Shown here piece after piece: positions 9,501 to 62,184 of a DNA stretch of 64,000 nucleotides (position 1 is its first letter; each line of letters starts with the position of its first letter). Below the pieces are notes generated by a model, which saw only the letters and a program-made list of their open reading frames with translations, ran no database searches and was not told the DNA's origin. Source of the DNA: an uncultured Hyphomicrobiales bacterium (GTDB lineage: Bacteria > Bacteroidota > Ignavibacteria > Kapaibacteriales > UBA2268); NCBI GenBank assembly GCA_964509335.1, contig CAZDXB010000007.1, forward strand, positions 44,882-108,881, read 5' to 3'. Position numbers and translations under genes: made by a program.

Positions 9501-9978
9501 TATCCTCGTTGTTTTCCTGTTTAGCGAGAATTAAGTAGTTGTTATCGTAAGCGACGCCGTCCATAGCGTAATATCTCTTTCCATTCGCAAAGATTTTTTT
9601 TGTTACGGCGCCTTCTTTGTCAACAATAAACATTGAACCTTCGTTGAAATCAAATATTTCGTCTTTCAATCCGGCTCTGAAGTTCTTAAACGGAATGTTA
9701 GCGATTAATTCGATAGCTTTGGAAGAATCGTTCTTTAAAATCGGATGGAAAGAAAAATCCTCGTAATAGTATATTCCTTCTCCGCCCACTATATAGAGAG
9801 AACTGTCGGGCGTTTGGATTATATCGTTGATTGTAGCGCCTGTCAGCCCCGCGTTGGAACCGAACTCAATCCATCGCCACCGCTCATTTAACTTCTCCTC
9901 CAAATCAAGCGCTTTAGAGAAGTTAAAAGTAAAAACCAATATTAAAAGAGCGATTGCAAAACTAAAATAGCGTCTCAT
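6553..9978 (-). CDS. Sensor histidine kinase with periplasmic two-component-regulator beta-propeller/Y_Y_Y region, TM, PAS, HisKA and HATPase_c domains (no receiver domain)
   Basis: 1141 aa. Signal peptide, then a long repeat-rich extracytoplasmic region with WxxG..G..F propeller-like repeats. TM helix PWFVIPLIALAGVLYLALVFFYL. PAS (RYRYIIENANDGIV). H-box ISHQYRTPLTIVQTSIDLL. C-terminal ATPase with G-boxes (GGETNVQSEGEKIIFTIKIP). Confidence 0.8.
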   Translation of the reverse strand: MRRYFSFAIALLILVFTFNFSKALDLEEKLNERWRWIEFGSNAGLTGATINDIIQTPDSSLYIVGGEGIYYYEDFSFHPILKNDSSKAIELIANIPFKNFRAGLKDEIFDFNEGSMFIVDKEGAVTKKIFANGKRYYAMDGVAYDNNYLILAKQENNEDKNYKLYLYDGENLKRFPMPKAVKINREIEANNVLFYTKSKCLWLNAPQGLYSFRNGKWTQKMQTPFANKFGIQKIVENNLGYGFFQCYFPQNFMGVWEFANHGEPKLNEWEIEPRIKTADINQEGEALIVFGNGKVKIWKGAKWENIKYPSFNLKYAKEIHYDFNGDLWVISSNKIYLCRLESTLWSYITFKNSRRNNINEIYKASDGTTWIASNKGLTVISSDGSKRFITKILGVPLSIVTAINEDENGNIWVGSGTLLEQSYKWDGERWKKVILDPGNRDLRVHKIRKDSENRLWFLTLSSKDPSKGYCAYALENGEIRKFDADGKFSEERIYDFLEDSSGAYWFATAKGVVRYKNGGIKRWNSNGDFPINKVSSLAYDKTKDKMFFSLTHQGAIGFIKDDSVHIIQRESMKGLTITEIEIDNNGCLWIATNGGVIYYNGNCFFNIDISSGLTSDKIWPLLIDSNKIYFGSSGGINILQAERVCKDKISVALESSTKKEGSKTIVQWKINSFCLLDLKKICSQYRIDGGEWSSWTKSRKAEFNDLSSGEHTFELRFKRIFDAKGKEIFIQKFELETPMYKNPWFVIPLIALAGVLYLALVFFYLKRARYLNEIKQSRLNLEESEKRYRYIIENANDGIVTTRHGLFNYTNPKAAEMLGINPKKLIGRRIVDFVAEEFKSKAEEIIERLKKGLEAPDRMEIKLRRDDRSEFWADARLNKVEYDIGYGALIIVTDIDERKAVEKKLKESLEEEHKLSVMKSSIISNISHQYRTPLTIVQTSIDLLRIHYEKGDKDKFEKNLSKIQSAIDRMIRFLEDILLLGKIESSDIEVKKEQIVLKQFCDDLVKGAPKPEDKEVSVSVECNIDDDKVETDPYLLKIVVGKILKTALELALDKSQVKLCLERTGGWLLCEIYVGATSIDKERVENLFEPFYEGHLSEDSDADNFSLAIAKDCADILGGETNVQSEGEKIIFTIKIPERIS

Positions 9979-10162
9979 ATCTTTTCTAATTTAACCTTTT
10001 ATTATTGCAAAGATAAAACTAACTCAATAACCAAGCAATTTTATCTCAATATATTATAAAAAAATTATTCGAATTTCGCCCATAATTTTGAATATATTTG
10101 AAAAAATAATTAAGTTGATTTTTTTATTATCTTGTTATAAAGTAAAAAGGAAGGCGATAAAT

Positions 10163-11356
10163 ATGAGCGGTTCAAAAATAATACCGGCGGAGAAGACTAA
10201 AGGCATAACCTACGCTATCAGAGATATAATAGTAATAGCGAACGAAACGGCTAAAACCGGCAAGGAAATGATGTATCTAAACATCGGCGACCCAAACGCA
10301 TACGACCACGTAACGCCGCCTCATATAGTAGAAGCGGTTTGCAAGGCTATGCGCGACAACAAGAACGGCTATTGCCCATCTTCGGGAATACCGGAAGCTC
10401 TCGACGCGATAGTCGAGGACGCGGAGTCAAAAGGAATTACAAACGTATTGGACGCGTTCGTAACTTCCGGGGCGAGCGAGGCGATAGAAATTTGCTTGAC
10501 GGCGTTGCTGAACAAAGGCGAGAATTTTCTGATGCCGACGCCGGGGTATCCGCTATACACGGCGGTTCAGAGCAAATTGGAATTGGAGCCGAATCCTTAT
10601 TATCTGGACGAGTCGAACGGTTGGCAACCCGACATCGAGGACATTAAATCTAAGATAAACGATAAGACGCGCGCTATTGTAGTCATTAATCCAAACAACC
10701 CGACAGGTTCGGTCGCTTCGAAAGAAATTTTAGAGCGAATCGCGGAAATAGCTATCGAAAATAATTTGCTCGTCATAGCCGACGAAATTTACGATAAACT
10801 ACTTTTCAGCGGCGAGAAGCACGCTTCGATAGCGTCGTTGAGCGAAGATTTGTCTTGCGTAACCTTTTCCGGTATGTCGAAAAACTACGTCGTTCCCGGT
10901 TTCCGTTTGGGTTGGGGCGTAGCGAGCGGAAAAAAAGAAGAGACGGCGAAATTTATAGAAGCCGTCAATAGAATACTTCGAGCGAGAGTTTGCGCCAACC
11001 ATCCCGAGCAATACGGAGCGATAGCGGCTTTGAAGGGCGAACAAACTCACTTGAAAAAAATGAACGAAACTTTGAAGCGGCGAAACGACTTGACGGTAAA
11101 ATATCTTAACGAAATACCGAGAACTTCGTTAGTTCAGCCGAAGGGAGCGTTTTACGCTTTTCCGAGCGTAGAAGTCGAGGACGATTTTCAGTTCGTCAAA
11201 GATTTGATTAAAGCTACCGGCGTAGTTGTAGTTCCCGGTTCAGGATTTGGTCAAAAGTCCGGGACAACGCATTTCAGAGCGGTTATATTACCCGACGAAG
11301 AAACGATAGAGAAATCTTATAAATTGATAGGCGACTTTTTAGCGGATTACAAATGA
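10163..11356 (+). CDS. PLP-dependent class I/II aminotransferase (alanine/aspartate aminotransferase-like)
   Basis: Track ORF 10088 starts at TTG. ATG at 10163 has an AAAAGGAAGG RBS. Motifs LNIGDPN, ...NPNNPTGSV and the PLP-lysine context FSGMSKNYVVPGFRLGW. Confidence 0.8.
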   Translation: MSGSKIIPAEKTKGITYAIRDIIVIANETAKTGKEMMYLNIGDPNAYDHVTPPHIVEAVCKAMRDNKNGYCPSSGIPEALDAIVEDAESKGITNVLDAFVTSGASEAIEICLTALLNKGENFLMPTPGYPLYTAVQSKLELEPNPYYLDESNGWQPDIEDIKSKINDKTRAIVVINPNNPTGSVASKEILERIAEIAIENNLLVIADEIYDKLLFSGEKHASIASLSEDLSCVTFSGMSKNYVVPGFRLGWGVASGKKEETAKFIEAVNRILRARVCANHPEQYGAIAALKGEQTHLKKMNETLKRRNDLTVKYLNEIPRTSLVQPKGAFYAFPSVEVEDDFQFVKDLIKATGVVVVPGSGFGQKSGTTHFRAVILPDEETIEKSYKLIGDFLADYK

Positions 11357-19742: not shown

Positions 19743-20033
19743 ATGATAACATACGCAAAAGACGAATTGGTCTCCGCTTCTAAACTGGGGCGGAAACTGG
19801 GTAGCATCCTTAAAAGGCTTAGGGAAAAGAAAATAAAGAAAGTGGGCGTATTGAGAAACAACAATCTCGAAGCGGCTCTTATCCCGATAGAAGAATACGA
19901 AAGGCTGTTGGAGATAGTCGAGCATATTGAAACGGCAAAACAGATAGAGGAACGCGAAAAAACAGATTTGAAAGAAGCCGTCAGTATGGAAGATTTGGCT
20001 AAAGAAAATGGGATAGATATTGATGAGTTATGA
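19743..20033 (+). CDS. Phd/YefM-family type II antitoxin
   Basis: 96 aa. MITYAKDELVSASKLGRKLGSILKRL...VLRNNNLEAALIPIEEYERLLEIVEHIE matches the Phd/YefM N-terminal fold and its IP.EEYE..LE motif. Its end overlaps the start of a toxin remnant. Confidence 0.7.
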   Translation: MITYAKDELVSASKLGRKLGSILKRLREKKIKKVGVLRNNNLEAALIPIEEYERLLEIVEHIETAKQIEEREKTDLKEAVSMEDLAKENGIDIDEL

Positions 20034-20234: not shown

Positions 20235-21140
20235 TTGAAAGCTTGGAAAGCGGAATTGGCTTTGTTGTTCGTTACAAGCGTTTGGGGCGGGACTTTCATA
20301 TTCACTAAGCTCGGTCTCGGCGACGCTTCGCCTTCGCTATATCTTTTTTTCCGCTTCTTAATCGCTTTTGTCATATCTTTGGCGCTCTTCCGCAAAAAAA
20401 TAACGAAAATTAACAGAGACACGTTATTCAAAGGCGTCGTTTTAGGTCTGTTCTTCGGCGGCGGCTTTTTGCTGCAAACGTTGGGACTAAAATACACCAT
20501 AGTTACCAAATCCGCTTTTATCACCGGACTATCGGTTGTTTTGACGCCGTTCGTCTTTTGGCTTTTGAAGCGAAAGAAAGTTCAACTGGGACCGAAAATC
20601 GGCGTTATCGTCGCGGCAATAGGACTATGGATTTTTACCAATCCGCGCTTCGGCTCGATTAATATCGGCGATATGATTACTATAGTATCAACTTTTTTCT
20701 GGGCGTTTTATATTGTTTATATGGACACATTCACGAAAGGCAAAGAGTCCTTCGACGAAACGGTGCAACTCGTTTTCCTTCAAATAACGACGACTATGAT
20801 AATCGCGGCGCTCGGCGCTTTCGCTATCGACGGGGCAAGCGTTAGAATAGAATTCACGAGCTTCCTGATTATCTCGCTCGCTTACAACGGCATACTAGCT
20901 TCCTTCGTCTTGACGTTTATTCATACCAGCTTCCAAAGATATACTACGCCCGTAAAGGCGGCTTTGATATTCTCGTTGGAGCCGGTCTTCGCGGCGTTCT
21001 TCGCAGTTTTGGCGATGCAAGAAATCCTATCGGTCAGAGGCTATATCGGAGCCGCGGTATTGTTCTTGGGCGTTTTAATCGCGGAGTTGGGAGAACCTTT
21101 GGCTATGCGCTTCAATAGGAAAATCAAAGCGGGAGAGTAG
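20235..21140 (+). CDS. DMT-superfamily transporter (two EamA domains)
   Basis: TTG start 20235 with a GAGGAG RBS 5 nt upstream. 10 TM helices in two halves. Composition is typical of EamA/RhaT drug-metabolite transporters. Confidence 0.75.
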   Translation: MKAWKAELALLFVTSVWGGTFIFTKLGLGDASPSLYLFFRFLIAFVISLALFRKKITKINRDTLFKGVVLGLFFGGGFLLQTLGLKYTIVTKSAFITGLSVVLTPFVFWLLKRKKVQLGPKIGVIVAAIGLWIFTNPRFGSINIGDMITIVSTFFWAFYIVYMDTFTKGKESFDETVQLVFLQITTTMIIAALGAFAIDGASVRIEFTSFLIISLAYNGILASFVLTFIHTSFQRYTTPVKAALIFSLEPVFAAFFAVLAMQEILSVRGYIGAAVLFLGVLIAELGEPLAMRFNRKIKAGE

Positions 21141-21158
21141 GGGATAAATAATCTTATT

Positions 21159-21190
21159 CTCATTCCAAAATTTCAATTTCGGAATGAGGG
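21159..21190. repeat. Hairpin repeat family 2 copy (CTCATTCCAAAATTTCAATTTCGGAATGAGGGG)
   Basis: Imperfect palindrome between the convergent DMT transporter and S24 peptidase genes. Confidence 0.65.
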
Positions 21191-21231
21191 GAATACCGGT
21201 GAAAATACGCTTTTCCTTAAAAGACACGGGG

Positions 21232-21660
21232 TTACAAATCTTTGATAACGTGCTTGACGACGCCTTGAATTTCGAAACGCCAGAACGGTTTTATTTCGAT
21301 TGGAAGGAAGTTTTTGTTCGCGGAGAAGAGGTATATAGCGCCGTCGATTACTCTAAGCGTTTTTACGGCTAACTCGCCGTTTACGGCGGCGATAACGACT
21401 TTTCCGTTTTTGGGTTCTTCGCTCGAATCGACCACTAGAATATCGCCGGCGTCTATTCCTTCCTCTATCATACTGTCGCCGACCACTCTGACCAGATAGG
21501 TGTTTTTTGGATTTGGCGTCAAATACGCTTTGAGGTCTATTTTTCTTATTCCGCTACCGTTCTTCTTAGCTAATCCGAGCGGTATAGCGGTTTTATAGAC
21601 TTCTGTCTCAAAGGCGTACTTAGCGCTCACCTTTATCGTTTTGTCTATTTTTGTTCCCAT
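21232..21660 (-). CDS. UmuD/LexA-like S24 peptidase domain protein (no DNA-binding domain); Ser/Lys dyad intact
   Basis: 142 aa. VVGDSMIEEGIDAGDILVVD holds the Ser nucleophile and NGELAVKTLRVI the Lys of the S24 dyad. No N-terminal wHTH. Leu-Gly sits where the Ala/Cys-Gly cleavage site is expected. Confidence 0.75.
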   Translation of the reverse strand: MGTKIDKTIKVSAKYAFETEVYKTAIPLGLAKKNGSGIRKIDLKAYLTPNPKNTYLVRVVGDSMIEEGIDAGDILVVDSSEEPKNGKVVIAAVNGELAVKTLRVIDGAIYLFSANKNFLPIEIKPFWRFEIQGVVKHVIKDL

Positions 21661-21663
21661 AAG

Positions 21664-22089
21664 CTAAAGCGAATGAATTACTTTTGTTACAAGCCCGAGT
21701 ATTTCGAATTTGACGTAGGGATTGATTTCCATAGGCAGAAATTGATTGTTAGTCGATTGAAGAAAAGCTTCTCCGTCGAAGACCCTATAGACTTTCAACG
21801 TCAATTCCTCGTTGCATCGCGCTACGACAATTTTGCCGTCTTTAGGTTCGAGCGACGAGTCGAATATAACCAAATCGTCGTCTCGGACGCCCAAATCCGC
21901 CATAGCGTCGCCGCAGACTTTTGCGAAAAAAGTCGCCGCCGGATGTTTGACGAGAAATTCGTTAATGTCAACCTCTTCGTCCTTCTCGCTGCCGACCGAA
22001 ACAGGCGTTCCGGCGGAAACGGACATAGAATAAAGAGGCGCTTTCTCGCCCGCTCCCGGCTCTAAAGCGAAAACTTCTTTTAGTTCCAT
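21664..22089 (-). CDS. UmuD-like S24-fold paralog with nucleophile Ser replaced by Ala (GDAM) but a canonical Ala-Gly cleavage site
   Basis: 141 aa. VCGDAMADLGVRDDDLVIFD aligns with GDSM of the neighbour but is S->A. The Lys is retained (EELTLKVYRV). VSAGTP places Ala-Gly exactly 35 residues upstream, as in UmuD/LexA. Confidence 0.7.
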   Translation of the reverse strand: MELKEVFALEPGAGEKAPLYSMSVSAGTPVSVGSEKDEEVDINEFLVKHPAATFFAKVCGDAMADLGVRDDDLVIFDSSLEPKDGKIVVARCNEELTLKVYRVFDGEAFLQSTNNQFLPMEINPYVKFEILGLVTKVIHSL

Positions 22090-22198
22090 ATGTCTTTTAA
22101 AGTATTTATTTAGAATTCCCCCCGAAAGTTTGAGCTAATATAAGGGAAATTCCTCAAAATTCCTAACAATTCTTGTTTTCTATCCTTATCTTGCGATT

Positions 22199-22696
22199 AT
22201 GACGAAGACAAAAAAAGTAATTATATATACGGACGGCTCAAGTTTAGGCAACCCGGGACCGGGTGGTTGGGCGGCGGTTCTAATTTACGGACCGAAGCGC
22301 AAGGAGATTAGCGGCGGTTTTCGCTCGACCACCAATAACAGAATGGAGCTTTACGCGGCTATTCGCGGCTTGGAAGCGATTAAGCGAAGCGACAAATGGA
22401 CGATTGAATTGCACACCGATTCGCGCTACTTAGCCGACGCCGTCAACAAAGGCTGGCTGGAAAGCTGGCGAAGACGCGGCTGGAAAAGAAAAAGCGGCGA
22501 AATCCTGAATTTGGACTTATGGAAAAGATTTTGGAAAGCTTACGAGGCGAGAAAAATGGAAATCGTTTGGGAGCGGGGGCATTCCGGCGTAAAAGAAAAC
22601 GAACGCTGCGACGAGTTAGCCAAGAAAGCCGCCCAAGAGCCAAATTTGCCTCGAGATGAAGAGTATGAGAGGTATTATGGGAATAAAAAGGGATGA
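22199..22696 (+). CDS. rnhA: Ribonuclease HI
   Basis: IYTDGSSLGNPGPGGWAAVL, ...NNRMEL..., HTDSRYL and GHSG..ENERCDELAKKAA are canonical RNase H catalytic DEDD-context motifs. Confidence 0.9.
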   Translation: MTKTKKVIIYTDGSSLGNPGPGGWAAVLIYGPKRKEISGGFRSTTNNRMELYAAIRGLEAIKRSDKWTIELHTDSRYLADAVNKGWLESWRRRGWKRKSGEILNLDLWKRFWKAYEARKMEIVWERGHSGVKENERCDELAKKAAQEPNLPRDEEYERYYGNKKG

Positions 22697-22705
22697 GGAT
22701 TTAAT

Positions 22706-23635
22706 TTAGTAGGAGTTTTGGGCGACTTCTTCTGCAAATAACGATTTTTGAGCAATTGTATCGTCTTCTCCGTGATTGTGATCTTTAATATTTTTGTCCA
22801 ATTCAAAATTACATACTAAAGCTTCTACTATTCTATTTCTATTTTCAATTTTACCGCCCGAATGATAGAAATGGTCTCTTGTGATTATGTTGAAATTGTC
22901 CCAATATTTATTTATCATTTCGTTGTTACGGAAGTCGTTGTGATGCCAAGTAGAAAGGATAAAATAAGCGTCCGTCTCTTTTAATTGGTTGAACAATAAT
23001 TCTTCTTCCTTTTCGGACCAGCCGTTGTAATAATCTACATAACGTCCGAGATACGGAGGATCGCAATATATAATATCGCCCTTTCTAGCCTTAGGTATAA
23101 CTTTATGAAATTGCTCGTTCAGAAATATCCATTCCTTTCCAATTCTTCTCTTTGCTTTATAGGCTTGATTTACAATTTTAGTAATGTAAGATTTCGAAAA
23201 TCTATTTGGTTTTTTACAAAACGGTATATTCCATTCCCCTTTTTTATTGAATCTCATCATTCCGTTAAATGCGGCTCTAGAAAGAAAAATGAAATCTAAC
23301 GACGACCCTTCTTCGTTAAATCTATTTTTAACGAATCTGTAATGAACGTAGCCGTCTTCTTTTGCGTTTCTTAAATTCTCGCCTTCTTTTTTTAAGTATA
23401 TCCTCACGGTTTCAGGAGTTATGTCGTTGTTTTGTAGCTCTTTGTAGAACTTTATGATATGAGGATTTATATCGTTTAGTATTGCTTTCTCAAAATTCAA
23501 ATTTAGAGCGACAACTCCGGTTCCCAAAAAAGGTTCTACCCAACGTCCGCTTGAACTTGGAGCAATCGATTTTATCCACGGGACTAATTTTGTTTTAATA
23601 CCCTGGCTTTTTATAGGCGGCACGCAAACTTTCAT
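22706..23635 (-). CDS. Dam-family (alpha-class) N6-adenine DNA methyltransferase, M.EcoRV-like
   Basis: N-terminal motif PPIKSQGIKTKLVPWI (AdoMet/Dam K.QG.K motif) and catalytic DPPY (IIYCDPPYLGR). Overlaps the start of the adjacent EcoRV-like endonuclease by 4 nt. Confidence 0.85.
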   Translation of the reverse strand: MKVCVPPIKSQGIKTKLVPWIKSIAPSSSGRWVEPFLGTGVVALNLNFEKAILNDINPHIIKFYKELQNNDITPETVRIYLKKEGENLRNAKEDGYVHYRFVKNRFNEEGSSLDFIFLSRAAFNGMMRFNKKGEWNIPFCKKPNRFSKSYITKIVNQAYKAKRRIGKEWIFLNEQFHKVIPKARKGDIIYCDPPYLGRYVDYYNGWSEKEEELLFNQLKETDAYFILSTWHHNDFRNNEMINKYWDNFNIITRDHFYHSGGKIENRNRIVEALVCNFELDKNIKDHNHGEDDTIAQKSLFAEEVAQNSY

Positions 23636-24555
23636 AACGTTTTCTTTCTTTTTTTAGCTCCTTTTAATATAACTTTTTTGAATAAATCTTTTCTTCCTTT
23701 GAACTCTAAAAAATCCCAAATATTAGTAATTTTTACCGTCTTGTCTTTTTTAACCATAGTGGCTTCTCCATAGTTCATCCAGTATTCGTCAAACCATTCC
23801 TCGCCTAAATTACTGAATACGCCATTTTCATTTTTCAAATCTTTAATGTCCTTAATAGAACCAATATTTGCAGTATTGCCCGACCCTCTACTATCGCTTG
23901 CTATTTTCCATTTTTCCGCTACGAAAAAGTCAAAATCTTTAATTATGGAAGTTAAGGAAACCAATTTATCGACAGTTCTAATTCGCTTTTTATTAAAGGA
24001 GTTTCTAAACTCTTCTTTGCATTCGTTCAGCTCTTTAACGCGATAAATTTCAGTTTCTCCAAGTTTATCGGAATAATCAATTTTCGAATAAATAATACCT
24101 AAACAATAATGCCCAAGATATTGATTATATGGAAATTGTATGTTCTTATCTTTATTCCTTTCTTTGAAATAACCGCCGTGGCTCCCTAACGTGAAGCCTG
24201 CGGTCTTGTCGTTTCGTCTGTAAGTAGTTTTTAGATCTAATGCAAACTTAACGTCGTCGTTGTTCTTATAAATGAACGTTAAATCAGGATAGTAATTCTG
24301 TTTTTCCGCTAGTATAATTTTGTAATCATTTTCTTCCGCAAATTTTAAAATCAACGGGAAAATGTGGGTTTCAAGGATTTTCGATACAATTTTTGTATCC
24401 GGCGATATCGTATATATATTCTTATAAATATCTATAAATCCTTTAATCGTCCAGCTACCGTCGTCCGAAGAAACATAATCCTTGAGTTCTAATACAAATT
24501 TTTTTAGATTGTTTGAAAATTCTCTTTTATACTTTTTCTTTTCCAATAATTTCAT
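23632..24555 (-). CDS. Type II restriction endonuclease, EcoRV family (predicted GATATC specificity)
   Basis: From recall of R.EcoRV, collinear matches include: DTKIVSKILE (EcoRV DTKVLSTIFE); AEKQNYYPDLTF (EPKQQNHYPDFTL, Asp74 region); ALDLKTTY (AIDIKTTY, Asp90/Lys92); FTLGSHGGYF; QFPYNQYLGHYCLGIIYS (VYPFDQYIAHWIIGYVYT); KWKIASDSRGSGNTANIGSI (KWVIAGDLAGSGNTTNIGSI); WFDEYWMNY (FLDYWRNY). Confidence 0.8.
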   Translation of the reverse strand: MKLLEKKKYKREFSNNLKKFVLELKDYVSSDDGSWTIKGFIDIYKNIYTISPDTKIVSKILETHIFPLILKFAEENDYKIILAEKQNYYPDLTFIYKNNDDVKFALDLKTTYRRNDKTAGFTLGSHGGYFKERNKDKNIQFPYNQYLGHYCLGIIYSKIDYSDKLGETEIYRVKELNECKEEFRNSFNKKRIRTVDKLVSLTSIIKDFDFFVAEKWKIASDSRGSGNTANIGSIKDIKDLKNENGVFSNLGEEWFDEYWMNYGEATMVKKDKTVKITNIWDFLEFKGRKDLFKKVILKGAKKRKKTL

Positions 24556-56562: not shown

Positions 56563-59500
56563 CTAGTCTTTTACAAATCTTCCCGAATAAGTTACGGGTT
56601 TGCCTTCGGAATCTATTCCGTCGAACGAATATATATAAGTTCCCTTTGGATGATTCGAAGCTCGCCAGTAAATTGAATTTCTGCCCAAATCGATTGGACA
56701 ATCCTTGAATTTGGCGACTTCCGAGCCGTCGAAGGAATATATCGTCAGCTTCAACGAATTCATTTCGCGAGTCAGATAATACGAAATATACGTTCTGTAA
56801 TCCATCGGGTTCGGATAGTTCTTTACTTCTACTATCCAATCTGGACCTTTCATCGGAATTTGCAATTTTCGGTCGTTGTTTTGAGAGCAGAATTCCGAGT
56901 TGGGGTCTTGCGACTCAACCGACGCGTAGAATTCGACGTATTCCGCCGAATCTTCGATAGCGTAATATACGTCCATGCGTCTTTCTTGGAATCTGTCGAG
57001 CGAATCCAAGGGTTTCTCGCCGATAAGAAGCGTGTCGCCGTCATTGCCGATAGCGAAGAATCTGACTATCGCGCCGCTAATCGCTCTTGCGCCGTTGCGG
57101 ACTTTTCCGGTAATTCTAACGTCCGAACCTCTTTCCAGAACTTCTTTATTAGCGCTCAAGTCGTATAAATATAAGTCGGGCGCTTCCAAGTCGAGATTTT
57201 CCCAGTCGGGATATCTGAATATAGTAGGTCCGGCGGAGCTTTTGCCCGCGTTTCCGCGATAGCTCACCATTACGTTCGGAATAACGGCGTTCGTGTCGAA
57301 CAAGCAGGAACATACGCCCGCTTTCTCGATAAACGGCAAATGTATTCTCTTCTTCTCGCCGGGAACGCAAGCGCCTATGCTCGCTACAATTCTATTGTTT
57401 GTGTAGGCGCAATTTGGCGGCAGAGCTTCGGCGATTGGGTTGAAATACGGTCCGACTTCGATGTCCAAAATCACGTTTTCAGCCATATCGTTGCCGTAGT
57501 TTGTTACTTGAACCATCGCGTCCACTCGTTTCCTGCCTTCCGAATCGAACTTCAGCGGTTGATTTTCTTTTATTTCTTTGCCGTTAATCGCCGCTATTTT
57601 CTTGAAGTTCATCAGTTTCGGACCGACCGCGGTTACCTCTACGTCTCTTCCGCTAGTCAGTAATTGAGAGCCGAAGTCGTCGCTTTCGTAACTCAGTATT
57701 TGCCGGTCTGATAATAGTATATCTCTTTTATCAGAATAAGCTTGAACTTTGCCTTTCTGTAGAATATAGAATTTCGAAAAATCGGTATTCGGGAAATTTG
57801 TAAATTGAGACAAATCTATCGTCTCTTTGCCGGCTTCGGCGTCGTATTCGGACGGGAGAGACGCCAAATCGTCAAATTCTGTGTAGTTGACGTCCTCGTC
57901 CGACCATCTCGCTTCTCCCATACCTTCGAAAAATCCGCTAGTTTCGACTAGCAAGCTCTTCAAATCGGCGTCGCCGACTACGATTTTTTCGTATCCGACG
58001 GGCGCGCCGTTCTCGTTTCTGTCCGAAACGCTGAACTTAAGCGGGGGAACTTCGTAGTTAATATCAATCGATTGCGCTTTGTCTTTCTTTCTAGCGTTCG
58101 ATTCGTCGTAATGCTTGCGAGTTCCGGATATTGAGAAGTTGATGTCGTAAACGTCGTTTTCCAAGTTCTCGTCGATTTTGAATAAAATGACGAAGTAAGC
58201 CCTACGGGAAGGTTGCATTAGCGGCAAAGTGTTGCCCATTTTAATCAAGACTTCGTCTTCGGGCTGATTGAAGCGCCAACCGGCTCTGAACGAGCCTAAG
58301 TCGTCGCCGCCTCTTATAACTTCGCCGGTCGCCGGGTCAACCTTCGCCGGCACGAGAGGTCTCGGATACGCGACGTATGACATTACGACTTCGCTATTGC
58401 CAAGCCCGTTAGGTATTTGCGGCGTTATAGTAGTGTTAATCCAATTGTCGTCGGTGCCGTTCATTATCTCGATTTTCGCTTCCAAGAAACAGCCGCTGAC
58501 CGTCTTTGGATAATCGGCTAAATCTGGATTGTCCGGGTCGGCGTTTGGAATTAAAGTAACGTTTTCTCTATAGTTATAATCGCCGTCTATTATGGTGGAC
58601 ATATTAAAAGACGGTTCTATTAAACTGCACGGGTCTCTGCCGCCGGCGTAAGTAGTAATTGTCGCCTCGCCGTAGCCGTATGAAACGCGGTACGGGTCGA
58701 ATCTGGCGTCGAAATAATGCGGCTCGTTTCTGTCTTCGATAGAGTATTTAATATAAGCGGTGTCTAAACCGAACTTAACAATAGAAGGCGTCGGTTTGGC
58801 GATTAATCTGTAATCGACGCCCTTGGCGTAGCCGGTCAATACGTGCGAGAATATCACCCAAGGCGAACCGCCGAATATCTCCTCCACTACAAGCCAGCCG
58901 CCTTTGCTAATATCGACAGAGCCTTCTTTGCCGTTGCCCTCGTATTTACAATTGAACTTGAAATGCGTCTTACCTAAAGTTTCGAAATAATCGTCTCCGT
59001 ATTCGCCGTCGGGTCCGTGATACCAGCCCGAATCGACTCTGCCGTAGATGTCGTCGATAAAAGGCTCTTCGGGATAATCCAGCCAGTCCTCGCCGTCGTC
59101 TAGCATAAAGTCGTCGTGCAAGAAGCCCGTGCTGGAACAGAACCTGTCGCCTCTGTCGTCAATCCAGTCGTCGATTCCGTCGAAGTTGTCATCGTCCAAC
59201 GCCGGCGGTATCAATACTTGCGGAATGTAGATATGATATTGATACGGGTCTTCCCATATCTCAATCGAATCTTTTGTGTTTGGATTATCTATCCATTTGT
59301 GATAGGGCGCGCCGTCTATTTCTACTATTGCGTCGATGTCGTAAGTTCCGTCTTGTCGTTTCGGCAATTTGATATTATATCCGCCGATGCCCTTCGGGAT
59401 ATCGTAAACAAAATAGCCGAAAACGCCGTCGCCCAACTCTTCGACATCTTCGTATTTCAAATCGCCCGAAGAGTCGTTATAATCGACGTCGTAGCCGACG

Positions 59501-62184
59501 TTTCTTATCCAATAATACGAGTATTCAGTCGAAGCGTCAACGTCGAACGTCAAGTTTGCCTCGCCGTTGGCGGGCAAATACTTTAACGTGTCGCCGTCGT
59601 CGTTCGTTATCGTGAAGTTGTTCGTCAAATACTCGAATTGCAGAGGATTGGGAAGCGGCGCCCAGTAGGTGTACGTGCTCCTAATAGGAGTTTTTCTGTT
59701 TTCGTCGAATATCGTTTTGTATTCCAAGTTCGAATAGGGCGAATTCGACGGTCGATAATGTTCCATATCTATTTCCTCGCCGCCTAGCGAAAGAACCGCT
59801 ATAAATTCTCTGTGCGGTTGCGGAACGGTTCCGACGCATTTATCCGTCGGCTTTAATTTATAGCCGGTCTTGGCGGTATCTATAAAAGTAAAGCCCTGGT
59901 AATTGTTAATTCTTTGGTATATCAATTGTTTCCAGATTACGTTGCCGTCGTCGTCTCTTTCCATCCAGTGCGACCAAGTCGTATCGTTCAAATCGGCGTT
60001 TTCGATGTTCGGCGTATAGGGGTAGAACATACCGCCGTTATAATTATCGTCCAAAGAGCCGTGAGCTTTGCCTACTGCCGCGGATAGATTGACTAGCTTT
60101 GGCGGGTCAACCCATATTTCGTAGTAACAGTAAGGGTCGAAATAATCGTAGCCGGAAATATCGCCTATATCCCAAGTTACTTTCCAGACCCGAATTTTAT
60201 CGCCGGCTTCCTCTAGGTCGATTTCGCCGTCGCCGTCCAAGTCTTTAGCTCTTCTGCCGTCGTGGTCGATGTCCTCGTAATAATCGTAATTCCCGGAACG
60301 CAGATGCTCCCAAGGATTTCTCCAATAAACAGAATCTTCTTCTATGGTGTATCCTTTCGGATAAATCGAAGCGGTGTCGAGCCATACGTCCGGATTTCCG
60401 TCGTTGTCCATATCGTATTCGGGATTGTCTTCGTCGTTGCTTCCCCGCAGAACATCGACAAATTTACCGCCGGGGGTTTTCAGAATCGGTATATTAATAG
60501 ATTTGTCGCTCCAGTAAAACGGCACGTCTTTGGGTATGTATTGAACGTATTTGGTTTCCAGAGCGGGCGTTCTTTCTTTGTTCTCCATTATCATAAACAC
60601 TTTGAAAGGCTGATAGTAAAGCCCGAGGAAGTTTTTCCAGTTTAAATCGGTGTCCGCCGCTAAGAAGGCGCTGAACATCATATCGGCGTAGTTGCGGTAT
60701 TTCCAGAACTTCCTTTTTGAGCCTTGATTCTCGTATTCCGTTTCATTATAGGAGACGTAAATATACGTCTTCCAGGATATGTATTTATCGACTTGCTCGT
60801 GAATTTCGTCGTCCGGTTCTGGGGTAGCCAATCGATAAACTATTACCTTCTCGGAGCGAGGAGGCATATTTAATCCGGTGAACTTGACGTCCTCGCCGTT
60901 GACTTCGTAAGTAACTCCCTGCGTTTCGACGTTCAGAAATTCGAAATAGTCCCTTACGTTTTCCTCGATTTCTATGCTGTTAATTGGCTCGTCGGACAAG
61001 TTTCTGACAGTGATTTGCACCTTAAACGTGTCTTTTCTGTCGTAAGAAACGGCGTTTTTACCCGCCGCGAGAGTGTCCGGGACCTCGTTTAAAATCGCTC
61101 GGGTTACGTCAATTTTCTGAACCCAAGTATAGAATATAGCGTTGAGCGACCACTGAAGCTGACGACTATCGTATTCTACTTCCTTAATTCCCCCGATAGT
61201 GGGGATTCCGGCGTTGCAAAGGATGCGTCCGCCGTCGGCTTTGTCGTCTTCGATTAGGAAGCAAGCGGGATAGCCTTTGTTGGCGGTCGAAGCTATTATT
61301 TTAGAGGAGCCTACGTCGGTATTAGGAATAATCGTAGCGTATAAGTTGCCGTTTACCGCGTCTTCTGTAAACGCGATGGGGTATTGCGAACTATTAAAGT
61401 TCACGCCGATTAAATTCGTTTGATAATCCGCTTCGTCGTAATCGTCGAAATCAACAGCGCCGGCGCTTAGATAGCCGAGCTTCTCGATAAAGTAAGAAGC
61501 GTTGCCCTCGGCGTAAATCGTTCCGCCGCTTTGCAAAAAGCTCTCGATTTTCTCTCCTATATTCGGGCAGATTTTGAATACGCTGTCGATATAATACTTT
61601 TGGTCTTCTCCTTTCAGCGAAAACGAGGGGATAATCAACAGCTGGGTGGCGCTTGAAATATCGTTAGTATCCAAGAAGCTTTCGTTTACTTCGTAATAGA
61701 TGTTGTCGTAAAGATATGTATTGAACAAATTCTCGAAGTAAATCGCCCCCCAAGTTACCGTGTTGTCGTCTTTTAGGATTTCGCTCCTAAAAATCGCTAC
61801 TCTTTTGGAATTTGGTTTATACTGCAGGGAATAGTGCGGAGTCGCTTCCCAGTCGTATTCGTCGTAGCTCTCGTTAGTAACGGAGCGATAGTTGTAAGGA
61901 ACTTTTTCCGGCAAAATGAAACTTCCTTTATTCTCGCCTTCGGCAGCCCAGTAAATTGAAAATTCTCCCCAGCGCGAGAATAAATTTGTGTCGAGATTTT
62001 GTCGGTAGAATCGCATATCAGCGTACGATTCGTACATAGCTAGTTTATACGCTTTCAGGAAATCCTCCTGAGTAGCGTCCGTCGGTATTATCGCGCCGCC
62101 GTCGGCAAGGGCGGGACGAAAAAGAGGCGTCAGAGTCAATAAAAGCGTTATTAAGGCAAGTTTAAGCGGTAGATTTTTTTTCAT
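56563..62184 (-). CDS. Giant (1873 aa) secreted protein with Asp-rich Ca-binding-like segments and T9SS C-terminal sorting domain; function unknown
   Basis: Signal peptide MKKNLPLKLALITLLLTLTPLFRPALA. Asp-rich stretches (DMDNDGNPDVWLD; DIDHDGRRAKDLDGDGEIDLEE; DDDNFDGIDDWIDDRGD). C-terminal VKNYPNPMDYRTYISYYL...SGRFVKD CTD. The N-terminal ~350 aa is possibly a GATase1-like/ThuA-like fold (weak). Confidence 0.65.
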   Translation of the reverse strand: MKKNLPLKLALITLLLTLTPLFRPALADGGAIIPTDATQEDFLKAYKLAMYESYADMRFYRQNLDTNLFSRWGEFSIYWAAEGENKGSFILPEKVPYNYRSVTNESYDEYDWEATPHYSLQYKPNSKRVAIFRSEILKDDNTVTWGAIYFENLFNTYLYDNIYYEVNESFLDTNDISSATQLLIIPSFSLKGEDQKYYIDSVFKICPNIGEKIESFLQSGGTIYAEGNASYFIEKLGYLSAGAVDFDDYDEADYQTNLIGVNFNSSQYPIAFTEDAVNGNLYATIIPNTDVGSSKIIASTANKGYPACFLIEDDKADGGRILCNAGIPTIGGIKEVEYDSRQLQWSLNAIFYTWVQKIDVTRAILNEVPDTLAAGKNAVSYDRKDTFKVQITVRNLSDEPINSIEIEENVRDYFEFLNVETQGVTYEVNGEDVKFTGLNMPPRSEKVIVYRLATPEPDDEIHEQVDKYISWKTYIYVSYNETEYENQGSKRKFWKYRNYADMMFSAFLAADTDLNWKNFLGLYYQPFKVFMIMENKERTPALETKYVQYIPKDVPFYWSDKSINIPILKTPGGKFVDVLRGSNDEDNPEYDMDNDGNPDVWLDTASIYPKGYTIEEDSVYWRNPWEHLRSGNYDYYEDIDHDGRRAKDLDGDGEIDLEEAGDKIRVWKVTWDIGDISGYDYFDPYCYYEIWVDPPKLVNLSAAVGKAHGSLDDNYNGGMFYPYTPNIENADLNDTTWSHWMERDDDGNVIWKQLIYQRINNYQGFTFIDTAKTGYKLKPTDKCVGTVPQPHREFIAVLSLGGEEIDMEHYRPSNSPYSNLEYKTIFDENRKTPIRSTYTYWAPLPNPLQFEYLTNNFTITNDDGDTLKYLPANGEANLTFDVDASTEYSYYWIRNVGYDVDYNDSSGDLKYEDVEELGDGVFGYFVYDIPKGIGGYNIKLPKRQDGTYDIDAIVEIDGAPYHKWIDNPNTKDSIEIWEDPYQYHIYIPQVLIPPALDDDNFDGIDDWIDDRGDRFCSSTGFLHDDFMLDDGEDWLDYPEEPFIDDIYGRVDSGWYHGPDGEYGDDYFETLGKTHFKFNCKYEGNGKEGSVDISKGGWLVVEEIFGGSPWVIFSHVLTGYAKGVDYRLIAKPTPSIVKFGLDTAYIKYSIEDRNEPHYFDARFDPYRVSYGYGEATITTYAGGRDPCSLIEPSFNMSTIIDGDYNYRENVTLIPNADPDNPDLADYPKTVSGCFLEAKIEIMNGTDDNWINTTITPQIPNGLGNSEVVMSYVAYPRPLVPAKVDPATGEVIRGGDDLGSFRAGWRFNQPEDEVLIKMGNTLPLMQPSRRAYFVILFKIDENLENDVYDINFSISGTRKHYDESNARKKDKAQSIDINYEVPPLKFSVSDRNENGAPVGYEKIVVGDADLKSLLVETSGFFEGMGEARWSDEDVNYTEFDDLASLPSEYDAEAGKETIDLSQFTNFPNTDFSKFYILQKGKVQAYSDKRDILLSDRQILSYESDDFGSQLLTSGRDVEVTAVGPKLMNFKKIAAINGKEIKENQPLKFDSEGRKRVDAMVQVTNYGNDMAENVILDIEVGPYFNPIAEALPPNCAYTNNRIVASIGACVPGEKKRIHLPFIEKAGVCSCLFDTNAVIPNVMVSYRGNAGKSSAGPTIFRYPDWENLDLEAPDLYLYDLSANKEVLERGSDVRITGKVRNGARAISGAIVRFFAIGNDGDTLLIGEKPLDSLDRFQERRMDVYYAIEDSAEYVEFYASVESQDPNSEFCSQNNDRKLQIPMKGPDWIVEVKNYPNPMDYRTYISYYLTREMNSLKLTIYSFDGSEVAKFKDCPIDLGRNSIYWRASNHPKGTYIYSFDGIDSEGKPVTYSGRFVKD

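What the first reader, a model, noticed from the sequence alone, without database searches (positions are those of the whole stretch)
21232..22089. Tandem UmuD-like S24 paralogs with complementary features: one has the nucleophile, the other only the cleavage site
Two adjacent ~141-aa proteins each consist of only the LexA/UmuD C-terminal peptidase fold. Neither has a DNA-binding domain, and no umuC or Y-family polymerase gene lies nearby.

The downstream paralog (21232-21660) keeps the GDSM serine and the lysine. It has Leu-Gly where the scissile Ala/Cys-Gly bond is expected.

The upstream paralog (21664-22089) has GDAM. This is the same Ser to Ala change used experimentally to make non-cleavable LexA. 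It retains a perfectly positioned Ala26-Gly27 site 35 residues upstream, which is the UmuD Cys24-Gly25 to Ser60 spacing.

UmuD cleavage is known to occur in trans within dimers. A plausible reading is therefore a heterodimeric enzyme and substrate pair, in which one paralog cleaves the other upon RecA* activation. The alternative is a pseudo-protease regulator. Either way it is an unusual natural split of the S24 self-cleaving module.
Basis: partly seen in the sequence, partly recalled or inferred. Interest (0 to 1): 0.6.

Follow-up and report, generated by a model that had tools for sequence, protein, structure and literature searches.

The report
Split UmuD: protease and substrate paralogs
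Two adjacent small genes encode a conserved pair of UmuD-like DNA-damage-response proteins in which one keeps the cutting machinery and the other keeps only the site that is cut. This looks like a natural two-gene version of a protein that normally cuts itself.

Summary
Window 21664-22089(-) ("A", 141 aa) and 21232-21660(-) ("B", 142 aa) are both Peptidase_S24/UmuD-like, without a DNA-binding domain.

**Active and cleavage sites**
- A aligns to E. coli UmuD without gaps: A26-G27 = C24-G25, A62 = S60, K99 = K97.
- B has GDSM and Lys, but Leu-Gly at the aligned cleavage site.
- I found no Y-family polymerase, lexA or recA in the 64 kb.

**Conservation of the pair**
- It is a co-inherited two-gene operon in 41 non-redundant loci from Kapaibacteria, Ignavibacteriota and Chloroherpeton MAGs.
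- A keeps Ala-Gly in 40/40 loci but Ser in only 11/41.
- B keeps Ser in 46/46 and Lys in 48/48, but Ala-Gly in about 10/45.

**Fit to known structure**
- Residues used by the outer (substrate) protomer of UmuD on RecA* (PDB 8gmt) are conserved in A and lost in B.
- Residues used by the inner (enzyme) protomer are conserved in B and relaxed in A.

**Independent support**
- Fourteen fused two-S24-domain proteins from other lineages show the same polarity: cleavable arm plus mostly dead domain, then live armless domain.
- All three whose flanks I fetched sit directly upstream of umuC.

**Best reading:** an obligate heterodimer in which B cleaves A in trans. This is inferred and untested. The polymerase partner is unknown. 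It is a new variant of a known kind.

The parts
21664..22089 (-). Gene A: UmuD-like S24 paralog, 141 aa. It has a cleavable-type N-terminal arm and a globular domain lacking the Ser nucleophile. Proposed substrate subunit.
   Evidence: PF00717, 81.1 bits. NCBIfam UmuD subfamily 101.6 bits, cut-off 110. The stretch holding the cleavage site and the catalytic positions aligns to E. coli UmuD 8gmt_B without a gap. Member of a monophyletic clade of 41.
22009..22014 (-). Codons for Ala26-Gly27 of A, the predicted scissile bond. Equivalent to UmuD Cys24-Gly25.
   Evidence: Read from the sequence and aligned. Ala 40/40, Gly 40/40, P3 Val 40/40 and Pro29 40/40 in the A clade.
21904..21906 (-). Codon for Ala62 of A, at the nucleophile position (UmuD Ser60), within GDAM.
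   Evidence: Family column: S11 N8 A6 D4 E4 F3 T2 R1 K1 G1.
21793..21795 (-). Codon for Lys99 of A, equivalent to the general base UmuD Lys97. Retained.
   Evidence: K in 36/41 and R in 5/41 of the A clade.
21232..21660 (-). Gene B: UmuD-like S24 paralog, 142 aa. It has an intact Ser-Lys dyad and a divergent basic N-terminal arm without a canonical cleavage site. Proposed protease subunit.
   Evidence: PF00717, 84.2 bits. NCBIfam UmuD subfamily 103.4 bits. Aligns to UmuD' from residue 39. Monophyletic clade of 45. AF2 core pLDDT about 90, arm 1-38 below 50.
21472..21474 (-). Codon for Ser63 of B, the nucleophile within GDSM.
   Evidence: Ser 46/46 and Met 46/46 in the B clade.
21361..21363 (-). 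Codon for Lys100 of B, the general base.
   Evidence: Lys 48/48 in the B clade.
21574..21579 (-). Codons for Leu28-Gly29 of B, which sit under the Ala-Gly column. A degenerate former cleavage site.
   Evidence: Family alignment. In the B clade P1 is Ala in 11/45, P1' is Gly in 19/45 and Pro29 is kept in 4/45.
22090..22198 (.). Intergenic region of 109 bp, shared with divergently transcribed rnhA. It holds a TTATATTAG box (22134-22142, minus strand), similar to the Bacteroidetes -7 promoter element (own knowledge, not tested), and the conserved G-run leader element.
   Evidence: Sequence. The same type of box appears upstream of A in most loci. rnhA is divergent upstream of A in 13/41 loci.
22117..22123 (-). 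GGGGGGA run in the 5' leader of the A-B operon, ending 28 nt before the A start codon.
   Evidence: A run of five or more G lies within 150 nt upstream of A in 27/39 loci, against 2% of control windows. Of 21 ORFs in these loci preceded by a G6+ run, 17 are A. Function unknown.

Best explanation
A and B are the two halves of a naturally split UmuD.

**Origin (shown).** An old duplication of a UmuD-type gene in the Bacteroidota/Chlorobiota group gave two co-transcribed, co-inherited paralogs. These lost complementary parts.
- A keeps the UmuD-type N-terminal arm: the PLF-type motif, Val-Ser-Ala|Gly-x-Pro, and the aromatic residue that helps form the pocket that receives RecA Phe203. Its catalytic Ser and the RecA-facing acidic patch are no longer under selection.
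- B keeps an invariant Ser-Lys dyad and the RecA-facing residues. Its arm no longer carries a conserved Ala-Gly.

**Proposed mechanism (inferred).**
1. A and B form a heterodimer through the conserved UmuD dimer surface.
2. On a RecA-ssDNA filament, B takes the position of the inner protomer and A that of the outer protomer.
3. Ser63/Lys100 of B cut the Ala26-Gly27 bond of A in trans. This removes a 26-residue peptide and exposes a UmuD'-like N-terminus, Gly-x-Pro.

**Downstream role (speculative).** The A'-B heterodimer would then do what UmuD'2 does. One processed arm and one docking subunit would modulate a Y-family polymerase encoded elsewhere (DinB or an unlinked UmuC) or the replisome.
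For: **Anatomy**
- Both proteins have the S24 fold only.
- A aligns to UmuD without gaps across the arm, the cleavage site and the catalytic positions, with Ala at the nucleophile and an intact Ala-Gly.
- B has the intact dyad and Leu-Gly at the aligned site.

**Operon**
- The A stop and B start are 3 nt apart here, with a median gap of 35 nt across 39 loci.

**Conservation**
- Forty-one non-redundant loci have A followed by B.
- A and B are each monophyletic with congruent sub-trees.
- A: Ala-Gly 40/40, Ser 11/41. B: Ser 46/46, Lys 48/48, Ala-Gly about 10/45. Canonical single UmuDs have all three features in 42/42.

**Structural logic**
- In RecA*-UmuD (PDB 8gmt; PMC9926225, read), the inner protomer supplies Ser60 and contacts RecA through Y52, 54, D91, E93 and F94.
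- The outer protomer supplies the cleavage region, with F18, L21, Q23, F26 and P29.
- The outer determinants are kept in A and lost in B. The inner determinants G92, E93, V54, Ser and Lys are invariant in B and relaxed in A.

**Experimental precedent**
- Engineered UmuD S60A/UmuD-delta18 heterodimers cleave the S60A arm efficiently in trans (PMC5342242).

**Convergent design**
- Fourteen fused two-S24-domain proteins have domain 1 with the arm and (A/C)-Gly (13/14). Ser is lost in 10/14 of these first domains.
- Domain 2 is armless with Ser and Lys in 14/14.
- All three whose flanks I fetched are followed directly by umuC.

**Asymmetric use of the subunits**
- The Pol V model in PMC12926913 uses the two UmuD' subunits asymmetrically.
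Against: - No biochemical data exist, and no multimer model could be run. The monomer AF2 models leave both arms disordered, so docking of A's arm into B is not shown.
- The split is not absolute. Eleven of 41 A orthologues keep Ser, 36/41 keep Lys, and about 10/45 B orthologues keep an aligned Ala-Gly. Some pairs may therefore still self-process.
- Three related genomes have B with no A within 10 kb.
- B arms have a conserved FSFEAP-x3-Ala motif, so a shifted non-canonical self-cleavage site in B cannot be excluded.
- No polymerase partner is linked. umuC is absent from all 41 loci, and dinB is adjacent in only 2 of them. The downstream role is therefore a guess.
Confidence: 0.6

Rival explanations
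1. A is a pseudo-protease that is never cleaved. It heterodimerises with B or binds other UmuD partners. Its conserved arm acts as a permanent docking element or pseudosubstrate, so A behaves as a locked full-length UmuD, a checkpoint or inhibitor form. B has a different substrate.
For: - The nucleophile motif in A is degenerate.
- Full-length UmuD has cleavage-independent roles and many partners (PMC5342242).
- A keeps Lys99 in 36/41 although it would be useless for catalysis without Ser.
- The AF2 models do not dock the arm.
Against: - Ala, Gly and P3 Val are invariant, and the post-cleavage Gly-x-Pro N-terminus is conserved in 40/40. This is exactly what a scissile site and a UmuD'-type new N-terminus require, and more than a docking strand needs.
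- B keeps an invariant dyad but mostly has no site of its own. A is the only conserved candidate substrate, and it is encoded a few bases away.
- The fused proteins keep the same site in domain 1 and sit in umuDC-type operons, where cleavage is the activating step.
Confidence: 0.2
2. A and B work as separate homodimers with separate jobs. A2 would be a non-cleavable UmuD-like regulator. B2 would be a constitutively UmuD'-like factor or a protease for an unrelated target. They are neighbours only because they arose by tandem duplication.
For: - UmuD family proteins form homodimers.
- The residue equivalent to the dimerisation residue UmuD N41 is kept in A (41/41) and mostly in B (28/43).
- B occurs without an adjacent A in 3 loci.
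Against: - Adjacency, order and strand are kept in 41 of the 44 loci where the DNA upstream of B could be read, across lineages whose flanking genes differ completely.
- The A and B trees are congruent.
- The complementary retention of outer versus inner RecA*-complex determinants has no explanation under independent homodimers.
- Covalently fused versions exist.
Confidence: 0.12
3. A is a decaying duplicate on its way to becoming a pseudogene, and the pattern has no functional meaning.
For: The catalytic motif of A is free to vary.
Against: - A is an intact ORF of constant length in 41/41 loci.
- It has 29 invariant columns among 13 members that are 45-62% identical to the window protein.
- Mean pairwise divergence within A (0.45) is similar to that within B (0.40).
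- Decay would not spare the cleavage site and arm while hitting only the active site.
Confidence: 0.02

Closest known systems
E. coli UmuD / UmuD' (MEROPS S24, accessory subunit of DNA polymerase V)
   Same: - Same fold, size and lack of a DNA-binding domain.
- Best PDB matches are 8gmt, 1umu and 1ay9.
- A has the same arm-to-active-site spacing and an Ala-Gly where UmuD has Cys-Gly. B has the same Ser-Lys dyad.
- UmuD cleavage on RecA* is intermolecular and asymmetric (PMC9926225).
   Different: - UmuD is one gene whose homodimer holds both functions in each chain. Here the functions are divided between two paralogs.
- umuD is followed by umuC. Here no Y-family polymerase is linked, neither in the window nor in 39 of 41 loci.
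- Both proteins score just below NCBIfam's UmuD subfamily cut-off.
Engineered UmuD S60A + UmuD-delta18 heterodimers (and the earlier trans-cleavage experiments of McDonald et al. 1998, as cited in PMC5342242)
   Same: The design matches. One subunit has an intact arm and a dead active site. It is cleaved in trans by a partner with a live active site whose own arm cannot be cleaved.
   Different: Those are laboratory mutants of a single gene. The window pair is a natural, anciently fixed and co-evolving two-gene version, and its cleavage is untested.
Fused two-S24-domain UmuD-like proteins found here (e.g. P0315, P0308, P0298), encoded directly upstream of umuC
   Same: Same polarity and same division of labour. 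The arm with (A/C)-Gly sits on a mostly Ser-less first domain, followed by a live, armless second domain.
   Different: - They are a single polypeptide with canonical AGFPSP arms.
- They are linked to umuC in mobile-looking contexts.
- They are not members of the A or B clades, so they are probably independent inventions.
- They are not described in the paper library searched.
LexA, lambda cI and UmuDAb (S24 repressors)
   Same: Same catalytic domain, Ala-Gly site and Ser-Lys dyad. All respond to RecA*.
   Different: [quoted passage not shown]
- LexA cleaves intramolecularly.
- TIGR00498 lexA scores 68 bits against a cut-off of 111.
HumD (phage P1) and YolD/YqjX (Bacillus)
   Same: They are accessory factors for Y-family polymerases that dispense with part of the self-cleaving module. 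HumD is pre-truncated, and YolD/YqjX lack the protease.
   Different: - The HumD model scores only 39-40 bits against a cut-off of 120.
- YolD/YqjX are not S24 peptidases.
- None of them is a two-gene enzyme-and-substrate pair.

Membership tests
Peptidase S24 (LexA/UmuD) superfamily | S24 catalytic-domain fold and sequence signature (Pfam PF00717) | tested here: met
   A scores 81.1 bits and B 84.2 bits against a cut-off of 23.3. Foldseek of the A model puts UmuD', UmuD and LexA C-terminal domains on top. phmmer to PDB UmuD gives E about 1e-17 for both.
Peptidase S24 (LexA/UmuD) superfamily | Ser-Lys catalytic dyad | tested here: not met
   This verdict is for A: it has Ala62 at the Ser position, with Lys99 present, and Ser is kept in only 11/41 of its clade. 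B meets the feature: Ser63 and Lys100 are present and invariant in its clade, 46/46 and 48/48. A is therefore a pseudo-peptidase member and B a catalytic member.
Peptidase S24 (LexA/UmuD) superfamily | Ala/Cys-Gly self-cleavage site about 35 residues N-terminal to the nucleophile | tested here: met
   This verdict is for A: Ala26-Gly27, with the same spacing as UmuD, is present in 40/40 of its clade. B does not meet the feature: it has Leu28-Gly29, and only about 10/45 of its clade have Ala-Gly.
UmuD (Pol V autoproteolytic subunit) | No DNA-binding domain; about 140 aa made of an arm plus an S24 domain | tested here: met
   141 and 142 aa, with PF00717 as the only Pfam hit.
UmuD (Pol V autoproteolytic subunit) | Score above the curated NCBIfam subfamily cut-off (NF007621, 110 bits) | tested here: not met
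   101.6 bits (A) and 103.4 bits (B). It is the best-scoring family for both, but both fall below the cut-off.
UmuD (Pol V autoproteolytic subunit) | Encoded in an operon with umuC | tested here: not met
   No Y-family polymerase was found in the 64-kb window. None is adjacent in 39/41 A-B loci, and dinB (Pol IV equivalog) lies convergent to the pair in 2. By contrast, 21 of the 36 control loci with a single canonical UmuD have umuC on the same strand within about 750 nt downstream.
UmuD (Pol V autoproteolytic subunit) | RecA*-stimulated cleavage to a UmuD'-type product, and dimer formation | not testable with these tools
   Only indirect evidence is available. RecA-contact residues from 8gmt are conserved in a complementary way, and the N41-equivalent residue is conserved. 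No multimer prediction or biochemistry was available.
LexA repressor | N-terminal winged-HTH DNA-binding domain; TIGR00498 cut-off of 110.95 bits | tested here: not met
   Only the C-terminal part of the model matches, at 68 bits for each protein. No HTH Pfam hit.
HumD (pre-truncated UmuD' homologue) | NF051876 cut-off of 120 bits; lacks the N-terminal arm | tested here: not met
   39.5 and 40.2 bits. Both proteins have arms of about 40 residues.

The most novel reading that the evidence does not exclude
The A-B pair may not be a polymerase accessory at all. It could be a free-standing, RecA*-triggered proteolytic switch in bacteria of the Bacteroidota/Chlorobiota group.

From my own knowledge, unverified here, this group largely lacks canonical LexA. 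DNA damage would be sensed by B cutting A. Either the released 26-residue peptide or the remodelled A'-B dimer would then signal to the replisome or to another target. The operon itself would be controlled through the conserved G-run leader element.

That would be a new post-translational, SOS-type signalling module built from a split self-cleaving protein.
Probability: 0.15. Interest if true: 0.85.

Novelty: new variant of a known kind. Interest (0 to 1): 0.68.

Why it matters
UmuD is the textbook case of a self-cleaving regulatory protein. Recent cryo-EM shows that its homodimer works asymmetrically on RecA*: one chain is the enzyme and the other is the substrate.

The pair found here, and the fused proteins that mirror it, would show that evolution has repeatedly frozen that asymmetry into separate genes or domains. 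If confirmed, four things follow.
- It is natural evidence that cleavage in trans is the physiologically relevant mode.
- It indicates that one processed arm per dimer is enough.
- It is a clean example of duplication, degeneration and complementation acting within a single self-processing reaction.
- It opens a question: which polymerase, or what else, is controlled by a UmuD-type module not linked to umuC, in a little-studied branch of the FCB group?

It also warns annotators that "Pol V autoproteolytic subunit" is a misleading name for A-type proteins, most of which cannot be autoproteolytic.

Tried and rejected
**Structure prediction**
- I tried to model a covalent A-B chain by translating 21232-22089(-) across the TAG stop.
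- Monomer AF2 models of A (pLDDT 69.7) and B (75.6) confirm the cores but leave the arms disordered. They say nothing about docking.

**Leader and intergenic region**
- An Rfam scan of 20500-23000 found nothing.
- I tested whether the G-run leader element sits in a conserved hairpin. Some loci have a hairpin with the G-run in the loop, but many, including the window, do not. I rejected a conserved hairpin.
- The sigma-70 and terminator scan gave nothing above the shuffled background.

**Gene context**
- Conserved-neighbour analysis found only divergent rnhA in 13/41 loci plus a gene of about 295 aa next to it. No polymerase, recA or lexA linkage appeared.
- I searched with the dinB that neighbours the pair in L008, hoping to find polymerases on the same contigs as B genes.
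- I looked for a degenerate A upstream of the lone B genes in L026, L027 and L032. None was found.

**Origin and naming**
- A tblastn search against phages found only canonical UmuD at under 41% identity, so a phage origin is rejected.
- Readthrough fusion: A-TAG-CTT-B is in one frame here, but the frame is not conserved in L004 or L005. I treat it as coincidence.

**Literature**
- Searches found no description of the pair or of the fused forms.
Full report
**1. What is in the window**

Two ORFs lie head to tail on the minus strand. "A" is at 21664-22089 (141 aa) and "B" is at 21232-21660 (142 aa). They are separated by the A stop codon plus three bases.

- Both match only Pfam Peptidase_S24, at 81 and 84 bits against a cut-off of 23.3.
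- In NCBIfam, both score best on the UmuD subfamily model, at 101.6 and 103.4 bits. That is just under its cut-off of 110, and far above the lexA and HumD models.
- They are 43% identical over the C-terminal 104 residues, and their N-terminal arms of about 40 residues do not align pairwise.
- Read from the DNA, A has V24-S25-A26-G27 and G60-D61-A62-M63.
- B has G61-D62-S63-M64.
- phmmer aligns A residues 18-119, which hold the cleavage site and the catalytic positions, to full-length E. coli UmuD (PDB 8gmt_B) without a gap. So A26-G27 = C24-G25, A62 = S60 and K99 = K97.
- B aligns from residue 39 onward with S63 = S60 and K100 = K97. In the family alignment its L28-G29 falls under the Ala-Gly column.
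- A Foldseek search with the AF2 model of A returns UmuD', UmuD and LexA C-terminal domains as the best matches.

The rest of the window is ordinary chromosomal DNA of a bacterium with a type IX secretion system. It encodes LysRS, glutamine synthetase, PorV, Por_Secre_tail proteins, histidine kinases and similar genes. Neither the jackhmmer search of all ORFs of 70 aa or more nor the Pfam scans of the large ORFs found a Y-family polymerase, and those scans found no lexA or recA.

The immediate neighbours are:
- rnhA, divergent, at 22199-22696
- an EcoRV-type restriction-modification pair at 22706-24555
- an EamA transporter at 20235-21140.

**2. The pair is a conserved, co-inherited operon**

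Searches with A and with B and a scan of one genome per species gave 90 sources: 89 loci and the window. I classified every S24 ORF with profile HMMs of the two clades.

- In 41 non-redundant loci an A-type gene lies immediately upstream of a B-type gene on the same strand. The median gap is 35 nt, and it is under 120 nt in 36 of 39.
- The record titles name Kapaibacterium/Kapabacteria, Ignavibacteriota/Ignavibacteria, Chlorobiota and Chloroherpeton, all in the Bacteroidota/Chlorobiota group.
- The flanking genes differ completely between distant loci. The pair is therefore kept as a unit.
- Exceptions are three related genomes with B but no A within 10 kb, and three B genes cut by contig ends.
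- In a neighbour-joining tree of the core domain, A (41 sequences) and B (45) are each monophyletic. Their internal groupings mirror each other, for example L076/L046/L051, L028/33/34/39, L038/40/41 and window/L010.
- This is what one old duplication followed by joint vertical inheritance predicts.

**3. Complementary conservation**

Counts by alignment column:

| Feature | A clade | B clade | Canonical single UmuD (42 sequences, other phyla) |
|---|---|---|---|
| P1 Ala (or Cys) | 40/40 | 11/45 | 42/42 |
| P1' Gly | 40/40 | 19/45 | 42/42 |
| P3 Val | 40/40 | 11/45 | V30, I12 |
| Pro after the site | 40/40 | 4/45 | 42/42 |
| Nucleophile Ser | 11/41 | 46/46 | 42/42 |
| Met after the nucleophile | 11/41 | 46/46 | 42/42 |
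| General-base Lys | 36/41 (R in 5) | 48/48 | 42/42 |

- The nucleophile column in A reads S11 N8 A6 D4 E4 F3 T2 R1 K1 G1.
- Both Ala and Gly are present together at the aligned site in about 10/45 B sequences.
- Of the 40 pairs with both sites readable, 29 have an A without Ser. Thirty have a B without Ala-Gly. Twenty-one are fully complementary, like the window.
- Very close relatives differ at the A nucleophile. L040 has Ser, while L038 and L041 have Ala. The site is drifting and was not lost once.
- A is not decaying overall. It is an intact ORF of constant length everywhere, with 29 invariant columns among 13 members that are 45-62% identical to the window protein.

**4. Fit to the known mechanism**

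The cryo-EM structure of UmuD on the RecA filament (PMC9926225, read) shows an asymmetric dimer.
- The inner protomer provides Ser60. It touches RecA through Y52, residue 54, F94 and the acidic pair D91/E93.
- The outer protomer provides the cleavage-site region, with F18, L21, Q23, F26 and P29 near RecA.
- Its Cys24 carbon lies 3.0 Å from Ser60 of the inner protomer.

I mapped these residues onto the family alignment.

| Determinant (UmuD numbering) | A clade | B clade |
|---|---|---|
| Outer: aromatic at F18 | 40/40 | 18/45 |
| Outer: P27 | 40/40 | 4/45 |
| Outer: P29 | 32/40 | 0 |
| Inner: G92 | 20/41 | 45/48 |
| Inner: E93 | 21/41 | 47/48 |
| Inner: V54 | Ala in 38/41 | 46/46 |

- The scissile Ala-Gly follows the outer pattern. 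Ser and Lys follow the inner pattern, as listed in section 3.
- A thus looks like a permanently "outer" (substrate) subunit and B like a permanently "inner" (enzyme) subunit.
- There is a direct laboratory precedent. Heterodimers of UmuD S60A with the arm-truncated but catalytically intact UmuD-delta18 cleave the S60A arm efficiently in trans (PMC5342242).

**5. Independent convergent evidence: fused versions**

A profile of the A clade was searched against 1.84 billion representative proteins. It gave 112 hits at E ≤ 1e-30. Among the best 150, 14 are proteins of 220-301 aa with two S24 domains.

- Domain 1 always carries the arm, with (A/C)-Gly-Phe-Pro in 13 of 14. It has lost the nucleophile Ser in 10 of 14.
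- Domain 2 has no arm or cleavage site and keeps Ser and Lys in 14 of 14.
- All three whose flanks I fetched (P0315, P0308, P0298) are followed directly by a umuC-type gene with IMS, IMS_C and DUF4113 domains, 420-428 aa.
- A fourth, P0294, lies on a 1.7-kb contig that ends inside the next gene.
- Their arms are of the canonical AGFPSP type, so they are probably independent inventions.
- The same division of labour, in the same order, has thus arisen at least twice. In the fused form it belongs to a Pol V-type operon.
- This also fits the Pol V model in PMC12926913. There one UmuD' binds the UmuC C-terminus and the other inserts its processed arm into the polymerase.

**6. What it most likely does**

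Shown:
- a conserved two-gene operon of complementary UmuD paralogs
- a catalytic motif that is dead in the window's A and free to vary across its clade
- an invariant site in A
- an invariant dyad in B.

Inferred:
- A and B heterodimerise. The equivalent of the UmuD dimerisation residue N41 is kept in A (41/41) and mostly in B (28/43).
- On RecA*, B cuts A at Ala26-Gly27. This leaves an A' that starts Gly-x-Pro, like UmuD'.

Speculative:
- A'-B then acts like UmuD'2 on a Y-family polymerase encoded elsewhere, or on the replisome.

The pair is not linked to umuC in any of the 41 loci. A dinB (Pol IV equivalog) lies convergent and adjacent to it in two related loci. By contrast, 21 of the 36 control loci with a single canonical UmuD have umuC on the same strand within about 750 nt downstream. 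UmuD also binds and modulates DinB in E. coli (cited in PMC5342242), so DinB is a reasonable candidate partner, but this is only a lead.

**7. Rival readings**

- **Uncleaved pseudo-protease regulator.** A would be a locked full-length UmuD. This is possible. It explains less well why Ala, Gly, the P3 Val and the post-site Pro are invariant, and why B keeps a dyad with no conserved site of its own.
- **Two independent homodimers.** This does not explain the strict linkage, the congruent trees, the complementary RecA-contact pattern or the fused proteins.
- **Decaying duplicate.** This is contradicted by the conservation of A.

Weak points in the favoured reading:
- About a quarter of A orthologues keep Ser, and about a quarter of B orthologues keep an aligned Ala-Gly.
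- Three genomes have a lone B.
- B arms have their own conserved motif (basic N-terminus, then F/Y-S-F-E-A-P-x3-A) of unknown role.
- No multimer modelling or biochemistry was possible.

**8. Comparison with what is known, and novelty**

- Both proteins belong to the S24 superfamily and are closest to UmuD.
- A fails the defining Ser-Lys dyad and B fails the defining cleavage site. Both miss NCBIfam's UmuD cut-off narrowly, and the umuC linkage is absent.
- They work like the two protomers of one UmuD dimer, but neither is a canonical UmuD.
- Full-text searches found no description of such a pair or of the fused forms. The library is incomplete, so prior mention elsewhere cannot be excluded.
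- I rate it a new variant of a known kind.

**9. Regulatory region**

- Upstream of A, a run of five to seven G (consensus about TTCGGGGGGA) lies on the sense strand within 150 nt in 27 of 39 loci. The rate in control windows of the same loci is 2%.
- Of 21 ORFs in these loci preceded by a G6+ run, 17 are the A gene.
- In the window the run is at 22117-22123. It lies 10 nt downstream of a TTATATTAG box that resembles the Bacteroidetes -7 promoter element (resemblance from my own knowledge, not tested).
- Its distance to the start codon varies from 2 to about 70 nt. It is not in a consistent hairpin, and it has no Rfam match. Its role is unknown.

Noticed in passing
window 22117-22123 (-), and upstream of gene A in L004-L076: A run of 5-7 G (about TTCGGGGGGA) lies in the 5' leader of the A-B operon in 27/39 loci, against 2% of control 150-nt windows. 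Of 21 ORFs in these loci preceded by a G6+ run, 17 are gene A. Its distance to the start codon varies from 2 to about 70 nt. There is no consistent hairpin and no Rfam match. It may be a regulatory site or a standby ribosome site.
   Followed up: partly
L091 6001-8038; L092 5001-7068; L094 5001-7096 (proteins P0315, P0308, P0298 and 11 others): Fused proteins with two S24 domains (220-301 aa). Domain 1 has the cleavable arm and has usually lost the catalytic Ser. Domain 2 is armless with an intact Ser-Lys dyad. All three with fetched flanks are followed directly by umuC, in mobile-looking contexts. I found no description of them in the paper library.
   Followed up: partly
L047 9462-10402: A different kind of tandem: two UmuD-like genes that both keep Ala-Gly, Ser and Lys. 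The first has an N-terminal GGRRxGAGRP extension. The pair is flanked by transposase-like genes, with no Y-family polymerase within the 7-9 kb of flank held for this locus.
   Followed up: partly
L026, L027, L032 (around 9950-10420): B-type genes with no A-type gene anywhere in the surrounding 10 kb. They come from three related Kapaibacteriales MAGs. A may be elsewhere in those genomes or lost.
   Followed up: partly
window 22706-24555 (-): A complete EcoRV-family restriction endonuclease (335 bits) with a D12-class N6-adenine methyltransferase. It is inserted between rnhA and an outer-membrane beta-barrel gene. It is present in L002 from the same organism but not in the related loci.
   Followed up: no
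window 22199-22696 (+), and 12 other loci: rnhA (RNase HI) is transcribed divergently from the A-B operon in 13/41 loci, usually with a conserved gene of about 295 aa behind it. This may be plain synteny or a shared control region.
   Followed up: partly
L008 4936-6015 (-), L021 10396-11505 (-): dinB (Pol IV equivalog, about 435 bits) lies convergent to B, with the 3' ends abutting or overlapping. This is the only polymerase linkage seen for the A-B pair, and it occurs in the sub-clade whose A has the most degenerate active-site motif.
   Followed up: partly
window 21661-21666: The A stop codon (TAG), one CTT codon and the B ATG are in the same reading frame, so readthrough would give a fused A-B chain. 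The frame is shared in L006 and L008 but not in L004 or L005, so this is probably coincidence.
   Followed up: yes
window 19743-20033 (+): A small Phd/YefM-like antitoxin ORF scoring 24 bits, below the Pfam cut-off of 29.8. No toxin gene of 40 aa or more follows it on the + strand before the EamA gene.
   Followed up: no
window 56563-62184 (-): An ORF of 1873 aa with no Pfam match at E ≤ 1e-5.
   Followed up: no
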